A program made the translations under genes and the position numbers. Shown one piece after another: positions 29,739 to 61,697 of a stretch of 64,000 nucleotides of DNA. Each line of letters begins with the position of its first letter. The first letter of the stretch is position 1. The stretch is taken from sequence record FJ373894, one strand, 5' to 3'. The stretch comes from Shigella phage Ag3. The notes below the pieces were generated by a model. The model was not told the DNA's origin and ran no database searches. It worked only from the letters and a program-made list of their open reading frames with translations.

Positions 29739-30078
29739 TTATGTATCCTCAAAATATAGTGGGGTTCAAGTCATGTTTGACGCAATCTAGTATCGCTGTG
29801 TTGTGCTTATAGAACAAGTGGCAAATTGCGCTACGCGTTATTAATAAATGCCTTCGGCATTTATGGACTTTATTAAAGATAATAACCTTTATTAATCCTA
29901 TTCGCTTCGCTCATAAAACAAATACTCGTTGTTCGTTAACACTCACAACTCGTATAATACCACGCCATTTGTTCAACAGGAAAGCAATTTTTATTCAACA
30001 GCAAAATTAATTTATTTGGTCTAAACATGCACGCGAAATAATATGTATGTCATGTTAACCAACACACGAGAGTAATAT
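29739..30078. promoter_or_regulatory. 340-bp AT-rich intergenic regulatory hub upstream of gp45
   Basis: Longest non-coding stretch in window; contains TTGTTC-N18-TATAAT (plus), TGCTTA box, hairpin AAATGCC-TTCG-GGCATTT; divergent to plus-strand ORF 30079. Confidence 0.5.
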
Positions 30079-30456
30079 ATGAAACAGTTCGTAGGATTAT
30101 ATGCGGTCGGATGCAGTAAGCCAGACGCCATCCTCACCGCAGGGCAATTTGTCACAGGCACCCCAGTTTGTCTGACGCAGCTGGCGTCAGACAAGAACTT
30201 ACCATCGGAGCCGCGATTTGTCCCTCTGGGTTTGATGACAGGCCTGAAAGTTGGTCTGTATGTCGGTGTGGTGACGTTTGAAAACGGCGTCGAAGCGAAG
30301 GTTCTGCCATTCAAATTGGGCAGCGAACAAATGCTGAAGGACACTATCAGTGAACACCTGAACGCACAATGTCTGGTTTCTCTGGACAAATTGTTCGGCG
30401 CAGTATCTGATGAAGGCGAGGCCACCCCCGCCTATGTGAATCAAGATCAGTCGTGA
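30079..30456 (+). CDS. hypothetical protein (plus strand)
   Basis: 125-codon ORF after the AT-rich hub with weak GAGAG RBS; 3' end overlaps uvsW 3' end. Confidence 0.35.
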   Translation: MKQFVGLYAVGCSKPDAILTAGQFVTGTPVCLTQLASDKNLPSEPRFVPLGLMTGLKVGLYVGVVTFENGVEAKVLPFKLGSEQMLKDTISEHLNAQCLVSLDKLFGAVSDEGEATPAYVNQDQS

Positions 30457-31955
30457 TTACCCAGCGCCACCTTCATGAACTCCACAGGGTGGCGCTCTGT
30501 CAGGTAGAACTTGTATCGCTCATGAGAGTGCCTGATAGCGTGGTTCGTGCTGGCGTTGTACGACACATCATCCACTAAGTCCCATATCCACGCGACGTCC
30601 TTGGAGGAGTGCTGACGCATCAGACGACCCAATGTCTGTATGACGCGGATATATGACTTGCTCGGGTGCGCCAGTACAAGGTGGTGTAGCTTCTTGATTG
30701 ACACACCCTGTTGCATTGTCCCGTATGAAGCCAACAACGTGATATCCTCTCCATCCTCCATCGCTTTCTGTATGCGGCGGCGGTCTTCGATCTTCACTTC
30801 CCCGTTGATGACAAACACGTTGGGCTTGACTGCGCTCAGCATATCGTACACAACCATCATGTGGGCGTCAATACGCTCGAACATGATGGCCACGTTCCCT
30901 TTCAGATTCAGTGCCATCTTGGCGATCAGTTCGTTGCGGGACTGGTGTGTAATAAGGTATTCTATTTCCTTGGTATAATCCCCGTCCAGACCAACAGCAT
31001 CCGCCGGAGTGTGCTTTAGCTGAATCATCTTCACTTTGATGTCAGTGGCGTACCCGAGATTGATAAGGTCGCGAGCCGTGATGATCTTATGGTACGCCCC
31101 GAAGTGAGCCACCACCTGAAGCCCGGCAACTTTGGTGTTCGACAGCGTACCTGTAACCCCCAGGCGCTGGTCGGCGTAGATGCAGTTGTTGAGGATATAG
31201 GACAGTTTCTCAGACTTGGAGGTATGCACTTCATCCACCACGATGTCACCGAACTGGTGGAACCATTCCTTCGGCTGGTCTTGAATGCCCTGCCATGTAC
31301 TGATGACGATTGGTTTGCTGATTTCCTTTGTCGCGCCCTCAAAGATCAACTGAGTGTTGGCAACGGGCTTCCAATCGCTGCCGTGTGCGTACTCTTCAAA
31401 GTTGTCGTACAGCTGAGTGACCAGGTGAATCGACGGCACCACGATAAGCGTCTTCAGAGGACTTTCGAGAGCTTCTCTGCGCTGCCTGTAGTACCGCGCC
31501 ATGACATACAGAATAAAGGACTTACCAGCACTCGTAGCCAGTTCACAGACGCATCTGGTTTGACGCATAGCCTTGGCGATGGTGTCGTACTGATAGTCGC
31601 GGGTCTCAGCATCGATGTATTCGTGATTTTCGGTGCGGATCTTTGGATGGAGACTGTCGATGAAGTCATGGATTTCTTGATCTGGGATGTCCTGAATGTA
31701 CTTCAGAGCCGGATCCAGTTCAATGGTGTATTTGTTGTTCTTGCAGAACTTGAACACCTCAAACAGTAGGCCGATATCAATCAGACCGGATGACTTGGTG
31801 AACAAGCGAACAACCCCGTCCCATTTAGAGAAGGGGTTGGGAACGAAGTTCGGGTCTTCGAATTTGAAGTAGTCATTCAGCTCTTCCCTGATAGAAAGAT
31901 CTGCGATGCAACGCATGCGGACTTCGTTAACCTTAACAATCTGAATGTCTGCCAT
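30447..31955 (-). CDS. uvsW: UvsW helicase (SF2, DEVH box)
   Basis: Walker A TSAGKS, DEVH, TWQG...PKEWF, LHHLVLAH, QTLGRLMR align to T4 UvsW; 503 aa after start moved to 31955. Confidence 0.9.
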   Translation of the reverse strand: MADIQIVKVNEVRMRCIADLSIREELNDYFKFEDPNFVPNPFSKWDGVVRLFTKSSGLIDIGLLFEVFKFCKNNKYTIELDPALKYIQDIPDQEIHDFIDSLHPKIRTENHEYIDAETRDYQYDTIAKAMRQTRCVCELATSAGKSFILYVMARYYRQRREALESPLKTLIVVPSIHLVTQLYDNFEEYAHGSDWKPVANTQLIFEGATKEISKPIVISTWQGIQDQPKEWFHQFGDIVVDEVHTSKSEKLSYILNNCIYADQRLGVTGTLSNTKVAGLQVVAHFGAYHKIITARDLINLGYATDIKVKMIQLKHTPADAVGLDGDYTKEIEYLITHQSRNELIAKMALNLKGNVAIMFERIDAHMMVVYDMLSAVKPNVFVINGEVKIEDRRRIQKAMEDGEDITLLASYGTMQQGVSIKKLHHLVLAHPSKSYIRVIQTLGRLMRQHSSKDVAWIWDLVDDVSYNASTNHAIRHSHERYKFYLTERHPVEFMKVALGNHD

Positions 31956-31976
31956 ACAAAATCTCCCAAGATATAT

Positions 31977-31987
31977 GGGGTATTTAG
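31977..31987 (-). promoter_or_regulatory. late promoter motif CTAAATACCCC (uvsW)
   Basis: Minus-strand CGCTAAATACCCC about 25 nt upstream of uvsW ATG. Confidence 0.55.
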
Positions 31988-32730
31988 CGATCCGGCCAGA
32001 CTCCGTTCTGTTCTTTATCCATGCGATGGTACAGACGAACACGCTCAAACATCTTTGCCAGGATGTCATCGCGGTTGAACTCTATGATGGTTGGCGTCAA
32101 CGATGACTCGTTGGCAATCACATTGATGAGGCGGGTGATCTTGACACCGAACATCTGCTGGAACATAACAGAGTACAAGCACAGTTGGATACTGTAGTCC
32201 TCGATCATTCCCCGCGTCTTCATGGTGTTCGATGTCTTGAAGTCGATGATAGCAGGCTTACCCTCATAAACCCCAATAAGGTCCACTCGACCTGCGAGAC
32301 CAAGCACCTCGCTATATAACGGGATCTCCTGAGCATAGATCTTTGTCATCTTGTTCAGATAGGGGAACAGCTGCTTGAACATGAACATGTATTCGCCAGC
32401 CGCTTCCAACACTTCTTTCATTGGGCGGTTCTTCAAATACAGTTCACATGCAAGGTGCAGCTTCTCCCCTCGGTCAGCGCAACGCATGGTCTCAAGGTCG
32501 GCGGCCTCTGCACCCAGCTTCTCCCTCCAAGCCTCAAGCCATTCATGATCACCAGTACGCCCCAGCATCGTCGTTACAGACGTCAGCTTGACACCAGTTG
32601 GTGACACATAATGACGACCGTTCTCCGTCGTCACACACTCCAGTTCCTTATGAGGAAGTTCGTACTGCTGGAATGTGTAATGACGATTTTCGAAGTCGTT
32701 CAGCTTGCGCAGGGCTTGGAGAGATGCCAT
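31984..32730 (-). CDS. PD-(D/E)xK nuclease (RecB/Cas4-like)
   Basis: GRVDLIGV, IIDFKTS (D-x-K) and QLCLY motifs; start moved to 32730, overlapping uvsY stop. Confidence 0.6.
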   Translation of the reverse strand: MASLQALRKLNDFENRHYTFQQYELPHKELECVTTENGRHYVSPTGVKLTSVTTMLGRTGDHEWLEAWREKLGAEAADLETMRCADRGEKLHLACELYLKNRPMKEVLEAAGEYMFMFKQLFPYLNKMTKIYAQEIPLYSEVLGLAGRVDLIGVYEGKPAIIDFKTSNTMKTRGMIEDYSIQLCLYSVMFQQMFGVKITRLINVIANESSLTPTIIEFNRDDILAKMFERVRLYHRMDKEQNGVWPDR

Positions 32731-33182
32731 CAGGAACCATCCATATATTTTCGCCAATCGATGGCATTCTTCACTTCGTATCCCAGCTTGTTCAGGCGAT
32801 CCAAACAAGTCTCGATGAACTTGACTTTTGCTTTTTGTTCTTGTAACAGAACAGACAGTTCTACATAGTCATCGTCGGCTTTGACCCATGTGTCCAGGTC
32901 AGACTTCAGGGGGCGAACCTTCAGGGGGCGCTCTGCGTAGATGTTCGGGGGTAACTCCCCTGCGTAGTAGCGGCGCAGATAGAGATCGATCTGGCGGAAG
33001 CGCCCGTTGAGGAATTCAAGATAACGCCCCTCACGCAGATAATGCCGTTGTACGGCCATCCAAGAGCGCCCGATTTTCAGTGAGATCTGGTCAAGGTTCA
33101 TGTCTTCTGGGTCCACTGTAATCAGCGGCTCCAGTTCGTTCATGATGTCCTCGGTTGCCATTGTCTGTAGTTGTTCTTTCAT
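32730..33182 (-). CDS. uvsY: recombination mediator UvsY-like
   Basis: Size, position next to uvsW, and C-terminal pattern alignable to T4 UvsY. Confidence 0.6.
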   Translation of the reverse strand: MKEQLQTMATEDIMNELEPLITVDPEDMNLDQISLKIGRSWMAVQRHYLREGRYLEFLNGRFRQIDLYLRRYYAGELPPNIYAERPLKVRPLKSDLDTWVKADDDYVELSVLLQEQKAKVKFIETCLDRLNKLGYEVKNAIDWRKYMDGS

Positions 33183-33224
33183 AAAATATCCCAGCTTGTC
33201 AATGTCATAGAATTATACCGTATT

Positions 33225-33725
33225 TCATGGATTAGAATCAATCACCTTCCCACCAGATAGTGGGACCAGCTGCTGGAACTTGAACGTCACTGTCGTCACC
33301 AGCTGAGGTACAGCCGCATCCACGTCCACCAGTACGTTGTCCAGAGCAGTCGGACGGGCTTCCTCCAGCACGAGAGTGAGGCCAATCGGTCGGTTGAGGT
33401 TATCCAGTAATTCAATGGTAATGTCCTTGGAGACAGCCAAATCCTTGCCGACGTTGCTGGTGATCCATTGGTGGATCTGTAACCATGATTTCCAGTCCTC
33501 GTCTATAACGAAAGTAAATACGACGGGATCATAGGTTAAACGTTCTGAAGGGATAGAAACCAGTACGTCGCCAGGAGACGGACCATCGATGCCTTCAGAG
33601 TATACTCCTGGTATACTGAAGTCGTGGATGTTACGGGTTAGGAGTACAAGGTCTCCGATAGTCAGACGCCACTTATCGGACGCCGCGAAATTAGGGTTTT
33701 CGTTCTTGAATTGTACGTCGGACAT
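33225..33725 (-). CDS. tail-tube-family protein (gp19/gp48/gp54-like paralogue)
   Basis: IPSERLTYDPVVFTFVIDEDWKSWLQIHQW follows the gp19-type motif also present in this window's gp19. Confidence 0.45.
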   Translation of the reverse strand: MSDVQFKNENPNFAASDKWRLTIGDLVLLTRNIHDFSIPGVYSEGIDGPSPGDVLVSIPSERLTYDPVVFTFVIDEDWKSWLQIHQWITSNVGKDLAVSKDITIELLDNLNRPIGLTLVLEEARPTALDNVLVDVDAAVPQLVTTVTFKFQQLVPLSGGKVIDSNP

Positions 33726-33754
33726 AATAGCACCTTTTGCTGTGGAGATATTTT

Positions 33755-34405
33755 GTGACCCTGATGCGCGGGATCAGTAGATTGTTGTTGGCATGCGCGA
33801 TGCTCTTGCTTACGAGCTGTCGCATCTTTGTCACGCCAATAATTTCTGTTTCCGAACTCTGGAACCCAGAAGTACGCACCGTACCCGTGACGTTGTCGGC
33901 CAGTGTTCCTACTTGTAACAAGGGTATGCTGGACATCATCGTGCAAGAGTTCCAGACCTTTCAGAAGCTCGTGCCTTTGGGTTGCTTCGAGGAGAACACG
34001 AGCACCCTCAAGCCATACTGGAAGACCACGATTCCCCTCCTGCGTCGTGGCGATGAAGGGAAGATTCCATACCTATCAGCAAGTATTTATTACTCTCAGA
34101 ACAACAGCATCATCATCACTTTTAATCCATCATTCTACGCCAAGCTGAAGCAACACATGGTTGGGCGACTGAGTGAAACGTCGGATATAATCGTGACGTT
34201 CAAGATCATGAATGACTCAGACAAGCCAGTACGAATCGCAACTCAGGGTGTGTTTGTCAACAACGATGCTGTTGGGAATGAGATGAACATCTTCGAAGTT
34301 AACCCAGGGGGGACGATCTGGATTAGACTGAGTAATGTGGGTGTGAACTCCCTACTGTTGGATGGCATCGAACCAGTGGGAGTTCTTCCGGCGCGGGAGC
34401 GCTGA
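33755..34405 (+). CDS. putative lipoprotein (plus strand)
   Basis: GTG 33755 or ATG 33764 with GGAG RBS; MRGISRLLLACAMLLLTSC signal with lipobox. Confidence 0.5.
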   Translation: MTLMRGISRLLLACAMLLLTSCRIFVTPIISVSELWNPEVRTVPVTLSASVPTCNKGMLDIIVQEFQTFQKLVPLGCFEENTSTLKPYWKTTIPLLRRGDEGKIPYLSASIYYSQNNSIIITFNPSFYAKLKQHMVGRLSETSDIIVTFKIMNDSDKPVRIATQGVFVNNDAVGNEMNIFEVNPGGTIWIRLSNVGVNSLLLDGIEPVGVLPARER

Positions 34406-35156: not shown

Positions 35157-35169
35157 TGGGGGTATTTAG
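35157..35169 (-). promoter_or_regulatory. late promoter motif CTAAATACCCCC inside a hairpin
   Basis: Upstream of late protein starting 35135; motif is one arm of palindrome AAATACCCCCAT-GGATG-ATGGGGGTATTT. Confidence 0.5.
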
Positions 35170-57185: not shown

Positions 57186-57194
57186 TATTTAGTA
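57186..57194 (-). promoter_or_regulatory. late promoter motif ACTAAATATC (large fibre gene)
   Basis: About 35 nt upstream of ATG 57151, downstream of terminator 57219-57243. Confidence 0.5.
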
Positions 57195-59235: not shown

Positions 59236-61512
59236 TTAGTTCTGAATCAACACGGCATTGTACGATAGTGGAAAATCACCAGAAGTTCCTGAACGGGTAA
59301 ACTGGTAGTTAGACCCAGAAACACCAGCAGCGACAGACGCCAACTGACTCGCTGAAGTGGCTGTCACCGCAATGCTACGGCCAGATACCAGGCTAACTAT
59401 ACCGACAGCGGCAGTAACGGACCCAACGCCATTCGGGATAGTAACTAACCCGACTTGCTTGTCCGGGTGTGTCGGGGAGTCATAATGGTAGAACTTACAC
59501 GAAGCTCCACCCACAAAAACCTGCCCGTAAAAGTAACAATTTTTTGTTGTTACGCTAGAGCCACCAGTTTGGTTATCTAAAACAGTAATTCCCAGTGGCT
59601 TATTTGCCAGGAATGTACAATTTTCCGCAGTTACTCCAACTACAGAGTTCACTAAAAGGTCTCCCTGCTGTGCTGCATCAATGTCATTGTTCTGGAAAAG
59701 GCAATTCACAAGCTTTGGTCTTGCCGGTACTAGGCCACCTTCTTTAATAATCTCAAGACCAAAGTAACGGCTGTCAGAGAATTTAACACCTGTAGCCATA
59801 AACTCATTACAAGAACCCTGAATTACCACACAAGATTTATTACCGCTGCGGTTGCTGCTGTAATACCCGTTTGTTAATTGTAAATACTGAGTATTAGTCG
59901 CTCTCAGTGCAATACCGGTGGCAAGGTCTGACATGACGTCAGTCAGCCATATCCACCGGCAGTTAACTATCTCTATAGCTGCGGTGCCTAAAGTGTTATC
60001 ACCACAGGCGTAGAATCTATCGCCTAGCAGCTCAATACCCTCTATGTTCGTGCTCACATGAGAGCTGTTTTCGGTTATGAACAGCCCGCATTTACACCCA
60101 TTGAATGTATTCTGGTTAAATCGAGTGTTAATCTGTCCCCCACCAAGTACAACACCGTATGTACTGGCAGCGAATCTGTTGAACCTGAAATCAAGCTCTC
60201 CAGCCCCATAACCGCCGGGTGCATCTACGCAATATTTAAGGAAGGCAAAAGAACAATTTTCAACTGTAACCAAAGGCGCTTCGATTCGTATACCAGTTGA
60301 TGTGGATTCTACGGTAACTGACTGAATCGTAAAGTCCGCAAGTCTTGCAAATTCATGAGTAACCTTGAAACATGTATCTCCGTCATTTTCAGGGCAGAAT
60401 GTCGTGTTGAGCTTGCCCGCTCCGATAAGATTGGCGGGGCTATCAATAACAATATCTTTTACGAAATATTTCTCCGTTGCCGCCGGGACAAATACTGTAT
60501 TAGACGCTGTAGAGGCGAGCTTAGCTGCGGCCAATGCGGCATTGATGGCCTGTGACCATGTATTAGACCCAGTTTTATAGTCGGCGGCATTGAAATAGAC
60601 GGCATGGCGGGCGTTAATTATAGCCTGCTCTACAGTAACACCAGAAGAAGTCCCGACTAACGTAGCCCCGGAGCTTGCCGCTAAATCGTTTCTTAAATTT
60701 GGGTCCGTTTGTGGAGTCCAGTCGGCAACAGCAACAGGGTTGGTACTTGCTGCGATTACATGCGGCAATGCACCACTCCAGGAATACCAGGTCTTACTTA
60801 CCGGGTCATATACCACTTTGTCACGGTCATTAATTGTTAAAGTGCCGCCTACGCTAAAAGTTAAACCAGAGTCAGCGTAGCCATTTTCAATAGCCCAGTT
60901 GAGTTTTAACTTGATCAAATCATCACCAACAGAGTCTAAACTCTGTTGCACCGTTTGCCCCGACGTAGTTCCAACAAGGCTTGCCCCATTATCAGAAGCC
61001 AACGCCAGGTAATTTTGTTTTACGGACATTTCTGACACGACCCAAACTCCAGCCGCAGGCGAACCTGTGAGGAAACTCACAACTCCTGTTGTGCTGTTGT
61101 AGCTGTAGTTGACACCAGGAACCTGGAACTTCCCGTCAACATACAGAGACTGTACGCCGTAGGTTGTGAAGTCTGGCGTGAAAGTAGTCTCGTTACCGTC
61201 CGCCTGAAACTTGTAGATTCTGATCCCGTTTTCATAATCTTCTGGGGACAGGATCTTGTCAAACAGACAGTACACTACATCATCAGCCTCTAGTGCTCGA
61301 CCGAGGTTGACTGTGTTGCCATCGATTTCATAGTTGTCGACAGGAACCTGAACACCACCATTGATAGTGATGAAGCCCGTAACGGGATAGAACGGGAGGG
61401 AGATAAACGTCTCTCCACCCGTTGCGGTATAAGTGTATGGAATCTGGTGTGGTGCTGTTACAACCGCTCCAAAGATGCTCTCGACGTTTCTGGTCATTTG
61501 AAGATACCCCAT
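59236..61512 (-). CDS. tail-spike protein (distinct N-terminal domain)
   Basis: 758 aa; Gly/Asn/Thr-rich beta-helix-like body; late motif CGCTAAATACCCC upstream. Confidence 0.7.
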   Translation of the reverse strand: MGYLQMTRNVESIFGAVVTAPHQIPYTYTATGGETFISLPFYPVTGFITINGGVQVPVDNYEIDGNTVNLGRALEADDVVYCLFDKILSPEDYENGIRIYKFQADGNETTFTPDFTTYGVQSLYVDGKFQVPGVNYSYNSTTGVVSFLTGSPAAGVWVVSEMSVKQNYLALASDNGASLVGTTSGQTVQQSLDSVGDDLIKLKLNWAIENGYADSGLTFSVGGTLTINDRDKVVYDPVSKTWYSWSGALPHVIAASTNPVAVADWTPQTDPNLRNDLAASSGATLVGTSSGVTVEQAIINARHAVYFNAADYKTGSNTWSQAINAALAAAKLASTASNTVFVPAATEKYFVKDIVIDSPANLIGAGKLNTTFCPENDGDTCFKVTHEFARLADFTIQSVTVESTSTGIRIEAPLVTVENCSFAFLKYCVDAPGGYGAGELDFRFNRFAASTYGVVLGGGQINTRFNQNTFNGCKCGLFITENSSHVSTNIEGIELLGDRFYACGDNTLGTAAIEIVNCRWIWLTDVMSDLATGIALRATNTQYLQLTNGYYSSNRSGNKSCVVIQGSCNEFMATGVKFSDSRYFGLEIIKEGGLVPARPKLVNCLFQNNDIDAAQQGDLLVNSVVGVTAENCTFLANKPLGITVLDNQTGGSSVTTKNCYFYGQVFVGGASCKFYHYDSPTHPDKQVGLVTIPNGVGSVTAAVGIVSLVSGRSIAVTATSASQLASVAAGVSGSNYQFTRSGTSGDFPLSYNAVLIQN

Positions 61513-61529
61513 AGAGGATTTGCCAATAT

Positions 61530-61540
61530 GGGGTATTTAG
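61530..61540 (-). promoter_or_regulatory. late promoter motif CGCTAAATACCCC (tail spike)
   Basis: About 20 nt upstream of ATG 61512; same 18-mer as the uvsW copy. Confidence 0.5.
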
Positions 61541-61697
61541 CGAATGGATAAGAAGTCGCAGGACTACCCACTTGTTTTATCTGATTACGAATTTACCCAG
61601 GCTGATATCGTTAATCAGCGTAGCCACTATGTTTGCCAGTTGGGTGGTTGTTAACGTGTTCACATCACCACGCAATTGCTGGCTACAACAATGATTG

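What the first reader, a model, noticed from the sequence alone, without database searches (positions are those of the whole stretch)
30447..33182. uvsY-nuclease-uvsW module with a late promoter on uvsW
A PD-(D/E)xK nuclease (Cas4/RecB-like) is translationally coupled between UvsY and UvsW (1-nt overlap with uvsY stop), and uvsW is preceded by the same CGCTAAATACCCCATAT 17-mer found before a tail-spike gene. T4 uvsW is also late-expressed, so the regulation is conserved while the nuclease identity may differ.
Basis: partly seen in the sequence, partly recalled or inferred. Interest (0 to 1): 0.4.

Follow-up and report, generated by a model that had tools for sequence, protein, structure and literature searches.

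The report
Known phage recombination gene cluster
This is the ordinary, already annotated uvsY–exonuclease–uvsW recombination gene cluster of an Ackermannviridae (ViI-like) phage; uvsW carries the family's published late-promoter motif, and the only refinement is that the nuclease belongs to the MGME1 family, not to Cas4.

Summary
On the minus strand lie uvsY (33182-32730), a 248-aa PD-(D/E)XK nuclease (32730-31984) whose ATG overlaps the uvsY stop by one base, and uvsW (31955-30447). The 17-mer CGCTAAATACCCCATAT occurs twice, 25 nt upstream of uvsW and upstream of a tail-spike gene.

The window is 99.5% identical to Shigella phage MK-13 (Agtrevirus, Ackermannviridae). There the three genes are annotated as UvsY-like mediator, exonuclease and UvsW helicase. 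The cluster is present in all nine other Ackermannviridae records inspected, and the nuclease-uvsW junction matches 282 phage records.

The core CTAAATA occurs 11 times, always on the coding strand and mostly just upstream of structural genes. It lies upstream of uvsW in six enterobacterial genera. A GenBank record (SPTD1) annotates a "Kuttervirus late gene promoter" immediately upstream of uvsW.

But T4 has no nuclease next to uvsY, and its uvsW is convergent with uvsY.

The nuclease is not Cas4: it scores below the curated cut-off and has no conserved cysteines. Its specific relative is mitochondrial MGME1 (profile E 4.5e-19; Foldseek E 1.6e-12).

Verdict: real, correctly read, already known. 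Interest is low.

The parts
33225..33725 (-). gp3-like tail completion / sheath stabiliser gene. This is the late structural gene immediately upstream of uvsY.
   Evidence: PHROG 45 (tail) E 9.7e-33. Annotated as tail completion protein in relatives.
33212..33241 (-). Sigma-70-type promoter candidate, TTGATT-18-TATAAT, upstream of uvsY.
   Evidence: Best promoter-like site in the region, 10 of 12 matches. The TATAAT is conserved at this position in Agtrevirus, Kuttervirus, Taipeivirus and Limestonevirus. Listed as Porf170 in Table S2 of the phiSboM-AG3 paper, PMC3121705.
32730..33182 (-). uvsY, the recombination mediator (150 aa).
   Evidence: Pfam PF11056 E 2.1e-11; PHROG 231 E 3.4e-44.
32728..32732 (-). 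TGATG: the uvsY stop and the nuclease start share one base, an arrangement that permits translational coupling.
   Evidence: Read directly from the sequence. TGATG or TAATG overlaps in Kuttervirus (SPTD1, CBA120), Taipeivirus IME250 and Limestonevirus RC-2014 and in Vibrio phage GR28A. T4 uvsY/uvsY.-1 has the same TAATG overlap.
31984..32730 (-). MGME1-family PD-(D/E)XK exonuclease (248 aa).
   Evidence: PF12705. Invariant in 35 homologues: R87, G88, H92, E96, E135, G147-R148-V149-D150, D163, K165, T166, Q182, Y186. AlphaFold2 model pLDDT 92.9. Top nine Foldseek hits are all human MGME1, best E 1.6e-12. A profile of 35 homologues hits only MGME1 in the PDB, E 4.5e-19.
31973..31989 (-). Late-promoter motif CGCTAAATACCCCATAT, with core CTAAATA at 31987..31981. 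The nuclease stop codon TAA (31986..31984) lies inside the core. The last A of the core is 25 nt upstream of the uvsW ATG.
   Evidence: Core conserved upstream of uvsW in 8 of 8 loci from six enterobacterial genera. A 'Kuttervirus late gene promoter' feature is annotated immediately upstream of uvsW in SPTD1, overlapping the last base of the CTAAATA core.
30447..31955 (-). uvsW, an SF2 branch-migration / R-loop helicase (502 aa).
   Evidence: UvsW_N, ResIII and Helicase_C. 33% identity to T4 UvsW, E 2.4e-80.
61526..61542 (-). Second copy of the 17-mer, the late promoter of a tail-spike gene.
   Evidence: Here the box after CTAAATA forms a perfect 10-bp stem with the ribosome-binding region, -16.3 kcal/mol.
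59236..61497 (-). Tail-spike gene downstream of the second 17-mer.
   Evidence: PHROG 13781 'tail spike protein', E 0.
30079..30456 (+). Conserved 125-aa ORF of unknown function. It is convergent with uvsW and overlaps its 3' end by 10 nt.
   Evidence: PHROG 4255 E 2.9e-49. Annotated in MK-13, SPTD1, Menlow, 2050H1 and IME250.

Best explanation
The region is the conserved recombination module of an Ackermannviridae phage (genus Agtrevirus), in the order tail-completion gene, uvsY, MGME1-family exonuclease, uvsW.

Shown:
- The identities of the genes.
- The 1-nt stop/start overlap between uvsY and the nuclease gene.
- A CTAAATA motif that contains the nuclease stop codon and sits 25 nt upstream of uvsW.
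- Conservation of this layout across the family.

Inferred:
- uvsY and the nuclease are made as one translationally coupled pair. Their transcript starts at the sigma-70-type TATAAT promoter upstream of uvsY, with added read-through from upstream late transcripts.
- UvsY loads the UvsX recombinase onto single-stranded DNA.
- The nuclease, like MGME1, trims single-stranded DNA ends or flaps at free ends. This would help produce or tidy the 3' tails used for strand invasion in recombination-dependent replication and repair.
- uvsW receives an additional burst of transcription late in infection from the phage's gp55/gp33/gp45-dependent late promoter. As in T4, the helicase would then accumulate when origin R-loops are to be removed and branched recombination intermediates are to be migrated.
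For: Source and annotation:
- The window is 99.5% identical to Shigella phage MK-13, with identical gene calls annotated UvsY-like mediator / exonuclease / DNA helicase uvsW.
- The module is present in all nine other Ackermannviridae records inspected, including two Vibrio members at 44-47% nuclease identity. The nuclease-uvsW junction matches 282 phage records.

Late promoter:
- CTAAATA occurs 11 times on the coding strand and never on the other strand.
- Eight of these sites lie 23-46 nt upstream of gene starts. Seven of the genes are structural or unassigned (two tail spikes, sheath, neck, scaffold and others); the eighth is uvsW.
- The core is conserved upstream of uvsW in 8 of 8 loci from six genera while its flanks vary.
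- GenBank OP991882.2 annotates a 'Kuttervirus late gene promoter' immediately upstream of uvsW.
- The Agtrevirus phage AG3 encodes gp55, gp33 and gp45 homologues (PMC3121705).

Other steps:
- T4 UvsW is expressed from a late promoter and unwinds origin R-loops (PMC3016281).
- Nuclease family assignment.
- MGME1 prefers single-stranded DNA ends and flaps (PMC4222359).
- The sigma-70-type promoter upstream of uvsY is conserved and already published.
Against: - No transcript or activity data exist for this phage in anything I could read. The transcription start sites, the timing and the nuclease substrate are all inferred.
- There is no terminator between the nuclease gene and uvsW. uvsW may therefore also be expressed earlier by read-through, unlike T4, where uvsW is convergent with uvsY.
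- CTAAATA was not found upstream of uvsW in two Vibrio Ackermannviridae.
- The phage family also has gp46/47 (PMC3121705), which is the resection nuclease in T4. A resection role for this nuclease is therefore not required.
- In cyanophages and in Stenotrophomonas phage Marzo the homologous nuclease is not next to uvsY.
Confidence: 0.8

Rival explanations
1. uvsW is not a late-only gene here. It is transcribed together with uvsY and the nuclease from the sigma-70-type promoter upstream of uvsY, and the CTAAATA promoter only boosts it late. On this reading the parallel with T4's late-only uvsW is superficial.
For: - The three genes are co-directional, with only 28 nt between the nuclease gene and uvsW and no terminator-like site there.
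- In T4 the genes are convergent, which isolates uvsW from uvsY transcripts.
- A conserved TATAAT lies upstream of uvsY.
Against: - The late-promoter core is conserved across six genera exactly at this junction, although it has to share bases with the nuclease stop codon. That argues it is under selection.
- A small helix that pairs the box after CTAAATA with the uvsW ribosome-binding site recurs across genera, with some compensatory changes. It could silence translation of read-through transcripts. In this phage, however, it is no better than chance.
Confidence: 0.35
2. The nuclease works mainly in replication, removing flaps and primers during lagging-strand maturation as proposed for MGME1 with Pol gamma. 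Its position next to uvsY would then be historical rather than functional.
For: - MGME1 is the only solved relative by sequence profile.
- MGME1 processes DNA and RNA-DNA flaps and interacts with the mitochondrial replicase (PMC4222359).
- In Stenotrophomonas phage Marzo the homologue sits among primase, RNase H, gp33, gp59 and gp32 genes.
Against: - The tight coupling to uvsY is kept from enterobacterial to Vibrio Ackermannviridae.
- CBA120 is reported to have RNase H orthologs (PMC3184105), and a relative (SW16-7) encodes Ribonuclease HI (PMC10458263), which could cover primer removal.
Confidence: 0.2
3. The nuclease degrades host or competitor DNA, either to salvage nucleotides or as a counter-defence. 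It would not be a recombination enzyme.
For: - CBA120 is inferred to contain hydroxymethyl-dUra in place of thymine (PMC3184105). This could allow self/non-self discrimination.
- PD-(D/E)XK nucleases are common in conflict systems. The second-best PHROG is 'CRISPR/Cas system associated'.
Against: - The protein fails Cas4 membership.
- The family is a core gene of T4-superfamily phages with unrelated hosts, with 997 phage records matching.
- MGME1-type enzymes need free single-stranded ends, which makes them poor bulk DNA degraders (PMC4222359).
- I did not scan the PADLOC library.
Confidence: 0.1
4. The repeated 17-mer is not primarily a promoter. It would be a structural or recombination element, such as a hairpin arm or a cassette boundary, that happens to contain an A/T-rich core.
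For: At the tail-spike copy and at 35169, the sequence from ATACCCC onward is one arm of a perfect 10-12-bp inverted repeat. Table S2 of the AG3 paper lists a terminator hairpin that contains CTAAATA.
Against: - Only the CTAAATA core is conserved between sites and between genera.
- The strand bias is 11 to 0, and the sites lie upstream of late genes.
- The motif resembles T4's TATAAATA, and the phage family has gp55 and gp33.
- The uvsW copy has no strong hairpin.
Confidence: 0.05

Closest known systems
The orthologous genes of Shigella phage MK-13 (HYP84_gp166/165/164), phiSboM-AG3 (orf170/169/168), CBA120 (orf168/167/165) and Vi01
   Same: Same genes, order, overlaps and promoter motif. DNA identity is 99.5% to MK-13. 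The trio appears in the table of Vi01 gene products as DNA helicase / exonuclease / UvsY-like mediator.
   Different: Nothing of substance. In 2011 the nuclease was still called 'conserved hypothetical'.
The phage T4 region 25 - uvsY - uvsY.-1 - uvsY.-2, convergent with uvsW
   Same: - In both phages uvsY follows a late structural gene.
- uvsY has a TATAAT-type promoter.
- uvsY is overlapped by 1 nt by the next ORF.
- UvsW is a clear homologue and is driven by a late promoter.
   Different: - T4 has no nuclease at this position. uvsY.-1, uvsY.-2 and the uvsW.1 region have no homologues in this window.
- T4 uvsW is convergent with uvsY, not downstream of it.
- The T4 late promoter is TATAAATA, here it is CTAAATA.
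- ViI-like phages lack MotA and AsiA (PMC3184105).
Human MGME1 (mitochondrial genome maintenance exonuclease 1; PDB 5ZYU, 5ZYT, 8XA9)
   Same: - Same fold: TM 0.69/0.76, rmsd 2.0 A over 204 columns.
- Same motif set (G..H...E, GxxD, D-x-K-T-S, Q...Y), and no iron-sulfur cluster.
- It is the only PDB family hit by the profile, E 4.5e-19.
- IMG already names several metagenomic homologues 'genome maintenance exonuclease 1'.
   Different: About 20% identity. The phage protein has an extra N-terminal beta-hairpin region (residues ~20-51). Its activity is untested and its cellular context is different.
Cas4 / RecB-family nucleases
   Same: The PD-(D/E)XK core with the Q...Y motif. Weak hits to TIGR00372 and PHROG 1706.
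   Different: - The score is half the curated Cas4 cut-off.
- There is no conserved cysteine cluster.
- Foldseek E-values are about 7 orders of magnitude worse than for MGME1.
T4 late promoters embedded in ribosome-binding-site hairpins (gene e lysozyme, gene 49, I-TevI). This comparison is from my own knowledge and was not checked in a paper here.
   Same: At three late promoters in this window (61540, 50680, 35169), the box just after CTAAATA pairs with the Shine-Dalgarno region of the downstream gene, at -16.3, -11.4 and -18.5 kcal/mol. A transcript starting about 6 nt after the motif would lack that arm.
   Different: For uvsW itself the pairing is weak and not above chance. The start sites are unknown.

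Membership tests
UvsY recombination mediator (Pfam PF11056) | Profile match above the curated cut-off over the full domain | tested here: met
   44.9 bits against a cut-off of 22.8, residues 30-149 on profile positions 13-127 of 128. PHROG 231 E 3.4e-44.
UvsW helicase | UvsW N-terminal domain plus an SF2 helicase core, with full-length similarity to T4 UvsW | tested here: met
   PF21241 UvsW_N at 31.6 bits (cut-off 25.3), plus ResIII and Helicase_C. tblastn against T4: 33% identity over 501 aa, E 2.4e-80. The GKS and DEVH motifs are visible in the translation.
PD-(D/E)XK nuclease superfamily, RecB-like branch (PF12705) | Profile match above the cut-off, and conserved catalytic D ... D/E-x-K plus Q...Y | tested here: met
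   32 bits against a cut-off of 22; 35 of 35 homologues match. D150, D163, K165, Q182 and Y186 are invariant in 35 sequences.
MGME1 family | Specific sequence and fold similarity to MGME1, in preference to other PD-(D/E)XK families | tested here: met
   The profile hits only MGME1 chains in the PDB, E 4.5e-19, over profile positions 34-226 of 227. The nine best Foldseek hits are all MGME1, E 1.6e-12 to 3.9e-11; the next is RecE at 3.4e-5.
MGME1 family | Metal-dependent exonuclease activity on single-stranded DNA ends and flaps | not testable with these tools
   Needs purified protein.
Cas4 | Score above the curated equivalog cut-off (TIGR00372) | tested here: not met
   34.8 bits against a cut-off of 65. 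Only the core is matched, residues 133-238. Pfam Cas_Cas4 is matched by 1 of 35 homologues, at E 0.0044.
Cas4 | Four conserved cysteines that bind an iron-sulfur cluster | tested here: not met
   No cysteine is invariant or nearly invariant in the 35-sequence alignment.
T4-type (gp55-dependent) late promoter, Ackermannviridae variant CTAAATA | A -10-like A/T-rich octamer related to TATAAATA, on the coding strand a short distance upstream of late genes | tested here: met
   11 occurrences against 0 on the other strand; eight sites lie 23-46 nt upstream of gene starts. Conserved upstream of uvsW in six genera.
T4-type (gp55-dependent) late promoter, Ackermannviridae variant CTAAATA | Late, gp55/gp33/gp45-dependent transcription initiation at the site | not testable with these tools
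   No transcript data were found. [quoted passage not shown] The source paper, Adriaenssens 2012, is not held.
Translational coupling | Stop and start codons overlap or abut, and the arrangement is conserved | tested here: met
   TGATG here. TGATG or TAATG in four other enterobacterial loci (SPTD1, CBA120, IME250, RC-2014) and in Vibrio phage GR28A. Actual coupling of translation is untested.

The most novel reading that the evidence does not exclude
The 'exonuclease' that is translationally coupled to UvsY in Ackermannviridae, and that is widespread in cyanophage and other T4-superfamily genomes, may be the closest prokaryote-world relative of mitochondrial MGME1. MGME1 would then be a further mitochondrial DNA-maintenance protein of phage ancestry. 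From my own knowledge, not checked here, Twinkle, POLRMT and Pol gamma are the usual examples of phage-related mitochondrial proteins. The phage enzyme would offer a genetically tractable model for MGME1's proposed role in preparing DNA ends for recombination. A second, smaller possibility is that the C-rich tail of the published late-promoter consensus is partly an anti-Shine-Dalgarno arm. It would silence read-through transcripts, so that only late-initiated mRNAs are translated.
Probability: 0.15. Interest if true: 0.55.

Novelty: already known. Interest (0 to 1): 0.15.

Why it matters
It matters little for discovery. The module, its gene names and the late-promoter motif are already in public annotation and in the literature for this phage family.

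It is useful as a clean worked example of three points.
- The T4 logic of a recombination mediator, followed by late-expressed UvsW, is kept in a distant T4-superfamily lineage with a different gene order.
- Ackermannviridae place an MGME1-type exonuclease where T4 has small ORFs of unknown function.
- The common label 'Cas4-like' for such phage nucleases is inaccurate.

The MGME1 link was not found in the papers I could search (0 papers hold both 'MGME1' and 'phage genome'). It could interest people working on mitochondrial DNA maintenance, but it needs a proper phylogeny and biochemistry.

Tried and rejected
- Homology of the nuclease to T4 uvsY.-1, uvsY.-2 or the uvsW.1 region. tblastn and tblastx gave only chance hits, E above 0.3. 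Rejected.
- Cas4 membership. Rejected on score and on the absence of cysteines.
- A terminator between the nuclease gene and uvsW that would make uvsW late-only. None was found.
- A hairpin that sequesters the uvsW ribosome-binding site on read-through transcripts.
  - In this window it is -8.0 kcal/mol with z = 0.13, and 12% of random 12-mers pair as well.
  - RNAalifold keeps only a 4-bp helix, with a few compensatory changes in 7 sequences.
  - It is stronger in Kuttervirus, -16.4 kcal/mol with z = -3.55.
  - Left as inconclusive.
- The CTAAATA motif upstream of uvsW in Vibrio Ackermannviridae. Not found.
- The source paper for the late-promoter consensus (Adriaenssens 2012, PMC4174289) is not held. 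My recollection that it gives 'CTAAATAcCcc' is therefore unverified.
- I did not search the large protein database with MGME1 itself. The listing would be filled with animal orthologues and would not settle the direction of descent.
Full report
**What is there**

All elements lie on the minus strand of 30447-33182.
- uvsY runs from 33182 to 32730 (150 aa). It matches Pfam UvsY at E 2.1e-11 and PHROG 231 at E 3.4e-44.
- A 248-aa PD-(D/E)XK nuclease runs from 32730 to 31984. It matches PF12705 at 32 bits against a cut-off of 22, and PHROG 298 'exonuclease' at E 3.9e-86.
- uvsW runs from 31955 to 30447 (502 aa). It has UvsW_N, ResIII and Helicase_C domains. It is 33% identical to T4 UvsW over 501 residues, E 2.4e-80.

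The uvsY stop TGA and the nuclease ATG share base 32730, giving TGATG. The 17-mer CGCTAAATACCCCATAT occurs exactly twice, at 31989..31973 and 61542..61526. No shuffle out of 100 gave two matches, even with three mismatches allowed. The second copy precedes a 753-aa ORF that matches a tail-spike family at E 0.

**Where the window comes from**

The 4-kb region is 99.5% identical to Shigella phage MK-13 (Ackermannviridae, Aglimvirinae, Agtrevirus). It is 99% identical to P46FS4, Gloob, ChubbyThor and SKML-39. In the RefSeq record the three genes are annotated 'UvsY-like recombination mediator', 'exonuclease' and 'DNA helicase (uvsW)', with the same coordinates as I derived.

A more sensitive search with the nuclease-uvsW junction finds 282 phage records, all with the same two genes under the match in the rows listed. 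The trio also appears in the table of Vi01 gene products of Vi01-like phages (PMC10892097). I inspected seven further enterobacterial loci: Kuttervirus SPTD1 and CBA120, Taipeivirus Menlow and IME250, Nezavisimistyvirus phiEa2809, Miltonvirus 2050H1 and Limestonevirus RC-2014. I also inspected two Vibrio members, GR28A and D493. All keep the order tail-completion gene, uvsY, nuclease, uvsW, sliding clamp. This is a family-wide core module, not something special to this window.

**The promoter**

The core CTAAATA occurs 11 times on the minus (coding) strand of the window and never on the plus strand. Eight of these sites lie 23-46 nt upstream of gene starts. The genes are two tail spikes, a 1612-aa protein, a neck or head-closure protein, the tail sheath, the scaffold, a 242-aa protein of unknown function, and uvsW. 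uvsW is the only DNA-metabolism gene among them.

At uvsW the motif begins at 31987. The nuclease stop codon TAA (31986-31984) is bases 2-4 of the motif. The last A is 25 nt from the uvsW ATG, with GGGAG as the ribosome-binding site.

Aligning the junction from eight loci of six enterobacterial genera shows CTAAATA in all eight. In phiEa2809 this requires correcting an evidently mis-called start. The following bases vary: ACCCCATAT, ACTCCATAA, ATCCCATAT, ACCTGAGTT, ACTTCTGTC. The identity of the two 17-mers therefore reflects two good matches to an extended consensus, not a special link between uvsW and the tail spike.

The SPTD1 GenBank record carries a regulatory feature 'Kuttervirus late gene promoter' immediately upstream of uvsW, overlapping the last base of the CTAAATA core. 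[quoted passage not shown] 2012 was used to drive a reporter. I could not read the 2012 paper. The Agtrevirus type phage AG3 has gp55, gp33 and gp45 homologues (PMC3121705). In 2011 the late consensus was still unidentified for this group (PMC3184105).

**Comparison with T4**

The layout differs, however. In T4, genes 26, 25, uvsY, uvsY.-1 and uvsY.-2 run on one strand, and uvsW converges on them from the other.

Three features are shared.
- uvsY follows a late structural gene.
- uvsY has a TATAAT promoter about 35-50 nt upstream.
- The next ORF overlaps the uvsY stop by one base, TAATG in T4.

The nuclease has no counterpart in T4. Neither uvsY.-1, uvsY.-2 nor the uvsW.1 region finds anything in the window (E above 0.3). 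A tblastn search with the nuclease finds 997 phage records, only 62 of which are Escherichia phages. At least 29 Escherichia records match the Ackermannviridae junction by DNA, and the other Escherichia rows I saw listed were phages of about 350 kb. I infer that T4-like coliphages lack it.

The sigma-70-type promoter upstream of uvsY, TTGATT-18-TATAAT at 33241-33212, is the best such site in the region. It is conserved in four genera. It is already listed as Porf170 for AG3.

**A caveat on 'late'**

uvsW lies 28 nt downstream of the nuclease gene, on the same strand, with no terminator-like site between them. Transcripts from the uvsY promoter could therefore run into uvsW. I asked whether read-through RNA hides the uvsW ribosome-binding site, as I recall for some T4 late genes. 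I did not check that T4 precedent in a paper here.

In this window the box after CTAAATA can pair with TGGG(AG). The fold is only -8.0 kcal/mol, with z = 0.13 against shuffles, and 12% of random 12-mers pair as well. Across seven sequences RNAalifold keeps a 4-bp helix in which three pairs show a compensatory change in at least one sequence. In Kuttervirus the fold is stronger, -16.4 kcal/mol with z = -3.55. I treat this as inconclusive for uvsW.

**The nuclease**

In an alignment of 35 homologues (34-96% identical to the query) the invariant residues include R87, G88, H92, E96, E135, G147-R148-V149-D150, D163, K165, T166, Q182 and Y186. This is the RecB-type PD-(D/E)XK set. No cysteine is conserved.

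The NCBIfam Cas4 model scores 34.8 bits against a cut-off of 65 and covers only the core. Pfam Cas_Cas4 is matched by one of the 35 homologues. The protein is therefore not Cas4.

A single-sequence search of PDB sequences already ranks human MGME1 first, E 0.003. The 35-sequence profile hits only MGME1, at E 4.5e-19 over nearly the full length. An AlphaFold2 model has mean pLDDT 92.9 and pTM 0.88. It gives MGME1 as the nine best Foldseek matches, with E 1.6e-12 to 3.9e-11, TM 0.69/0.76 and rmsd 2.0 A. RecE (3.4e-5), Cas4 (5.9e-5), Exo5, Dna2, AdnAB and AddAB follow far behind. IMG's automatic naming already calls several metagenomic homologues 'genome maintenance exonuclease 1'.

MGME1 degrades single-stranded DNA from free ends and processes flaps, and its authors proposed that it prepares ends for recombination, possibly with a helicase (PMC4222359).

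**Mechanism proposed**

- Shown: gene identities, the stop/start overlap, motif position and conservation.
- Inferred: UvsY and the nuclease are produced together from one coupled message. UvsY loads UvsX on single-stranded DNA. The nuclease trims single-stranded ends or flaps at breaks and at invading ends. UvsW, boosted late by the gp55-type promoter, migrates branches and removes R-loops when replication becomes recombination-dependent.

The main alternatives are that uvsW is also made early by read-through, that the nuclease serves lagging-strand maturation, or that it degrades foreign DNA. None can be excluded without experiments.

**Verdict**

The finding is real and was read correctly, but it describes an annotated, family-wide gene cluster with a published promoter motif. 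The only additions from this work are the MGME1 assignment of the nuclease, the rejection of Cas4, and the exact geometry: a stop codon inside the promoter core, and co-directional genes with no terminator. Interest is 0.15. Novelty: already known.

Noticed in passing
window 61540-61497, 50680-50650 and 35169-35135 (minus strand): At three late promoters, the bases right after CTAAATA form the 5' arm of a strong hairpin whose 3' arm is the G-rich ribosome-binding site of the downstream gene. An example is AATACCCCCAT / ATGGGGGTATT. The folds are -16.3, -11.4 and -18.5 kcal/mol. At most 0.13% of random 12-mers pair as well at 61540 and 35169. A transcript starting about 6 nt after the motif would lack the 5' arm. 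This would allow translation from late-initiated RNA only, or the hairpins could double as terminators for the upstream gene.
   Followed up: partly
window 30079-30456 (+), against the uvsW 3' end at 30447: A conserved 125-aa ORF of unknown function (PHROG 4255) is the only plus-strand gene in this stretch. It converges on uvsW with a 10-nt overlap of the coding ends. Its transcription would run antisense into uvsW unless it is terminated.
   Followed up: no
L004 1030-1755 (Menlow); L008 3945-4814 (RC-2014); hit H6 (ChubbyThor); L010 4348-6110 (Vibrio phage D493): The module is a hotspot for mobile endonucleases. Menlow has an 'endonuclease' gene (called GIY-YIG homing endonuclease in the related KpS110 record) between uvsY and the nuclease gene. 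Limestonevirus RC-2014 has an HNH endonuclease gene directly after a shortened uvsW ORF, and LIMEstone1 is reported to have an intron in uvsW (PMC3296691). ChubbyThor has an extra endonuclease, about 700 bp. In D493 the helicase is annotated as two ORFs.
   Followed up: no
L005 (Erwinia phage phiEa2809), about 2533 versus the annotated 2572: The annotated uvsW start in phiEa2809 looks 39 nt too far downstream. An in-frame ATGGCTAAC, preceded by GGGG and by CTAAATA, matches the start and promoter geometry of the other genera.
   Followed up: partly
L002 2504-2510 (SPTD1, OP991882.2): The 7-nt 'Kuttervirus late gene promoter' feature covers ACTCCAT, which is 6 nt downstream of CTAAATA (2498-2504). 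Either the coordinates were offset in the record, or the depositors marked a different part of the element.
   Followed up: no
window 33737-33770 (minus strand), upstream of the gp3-like gene: The tail-completion gene has no exact CTAAATA. It has ACAAAATATCTCC about 30 nt upstream of its ATG, possibly a one-mismatch variant of the late promoter (compare ACTAAATATCTCT at 57192).
   Followed up: no
window 29844-29864 (plus strand): A 9-bp hairpin, ATAAATGCCTTCGGCATTTAT, lies in the 340-nt gap between the sliding-clamp gene start and the plus-strand ORF. It is palindromic, so it could act in both directions.
   Followed up: no
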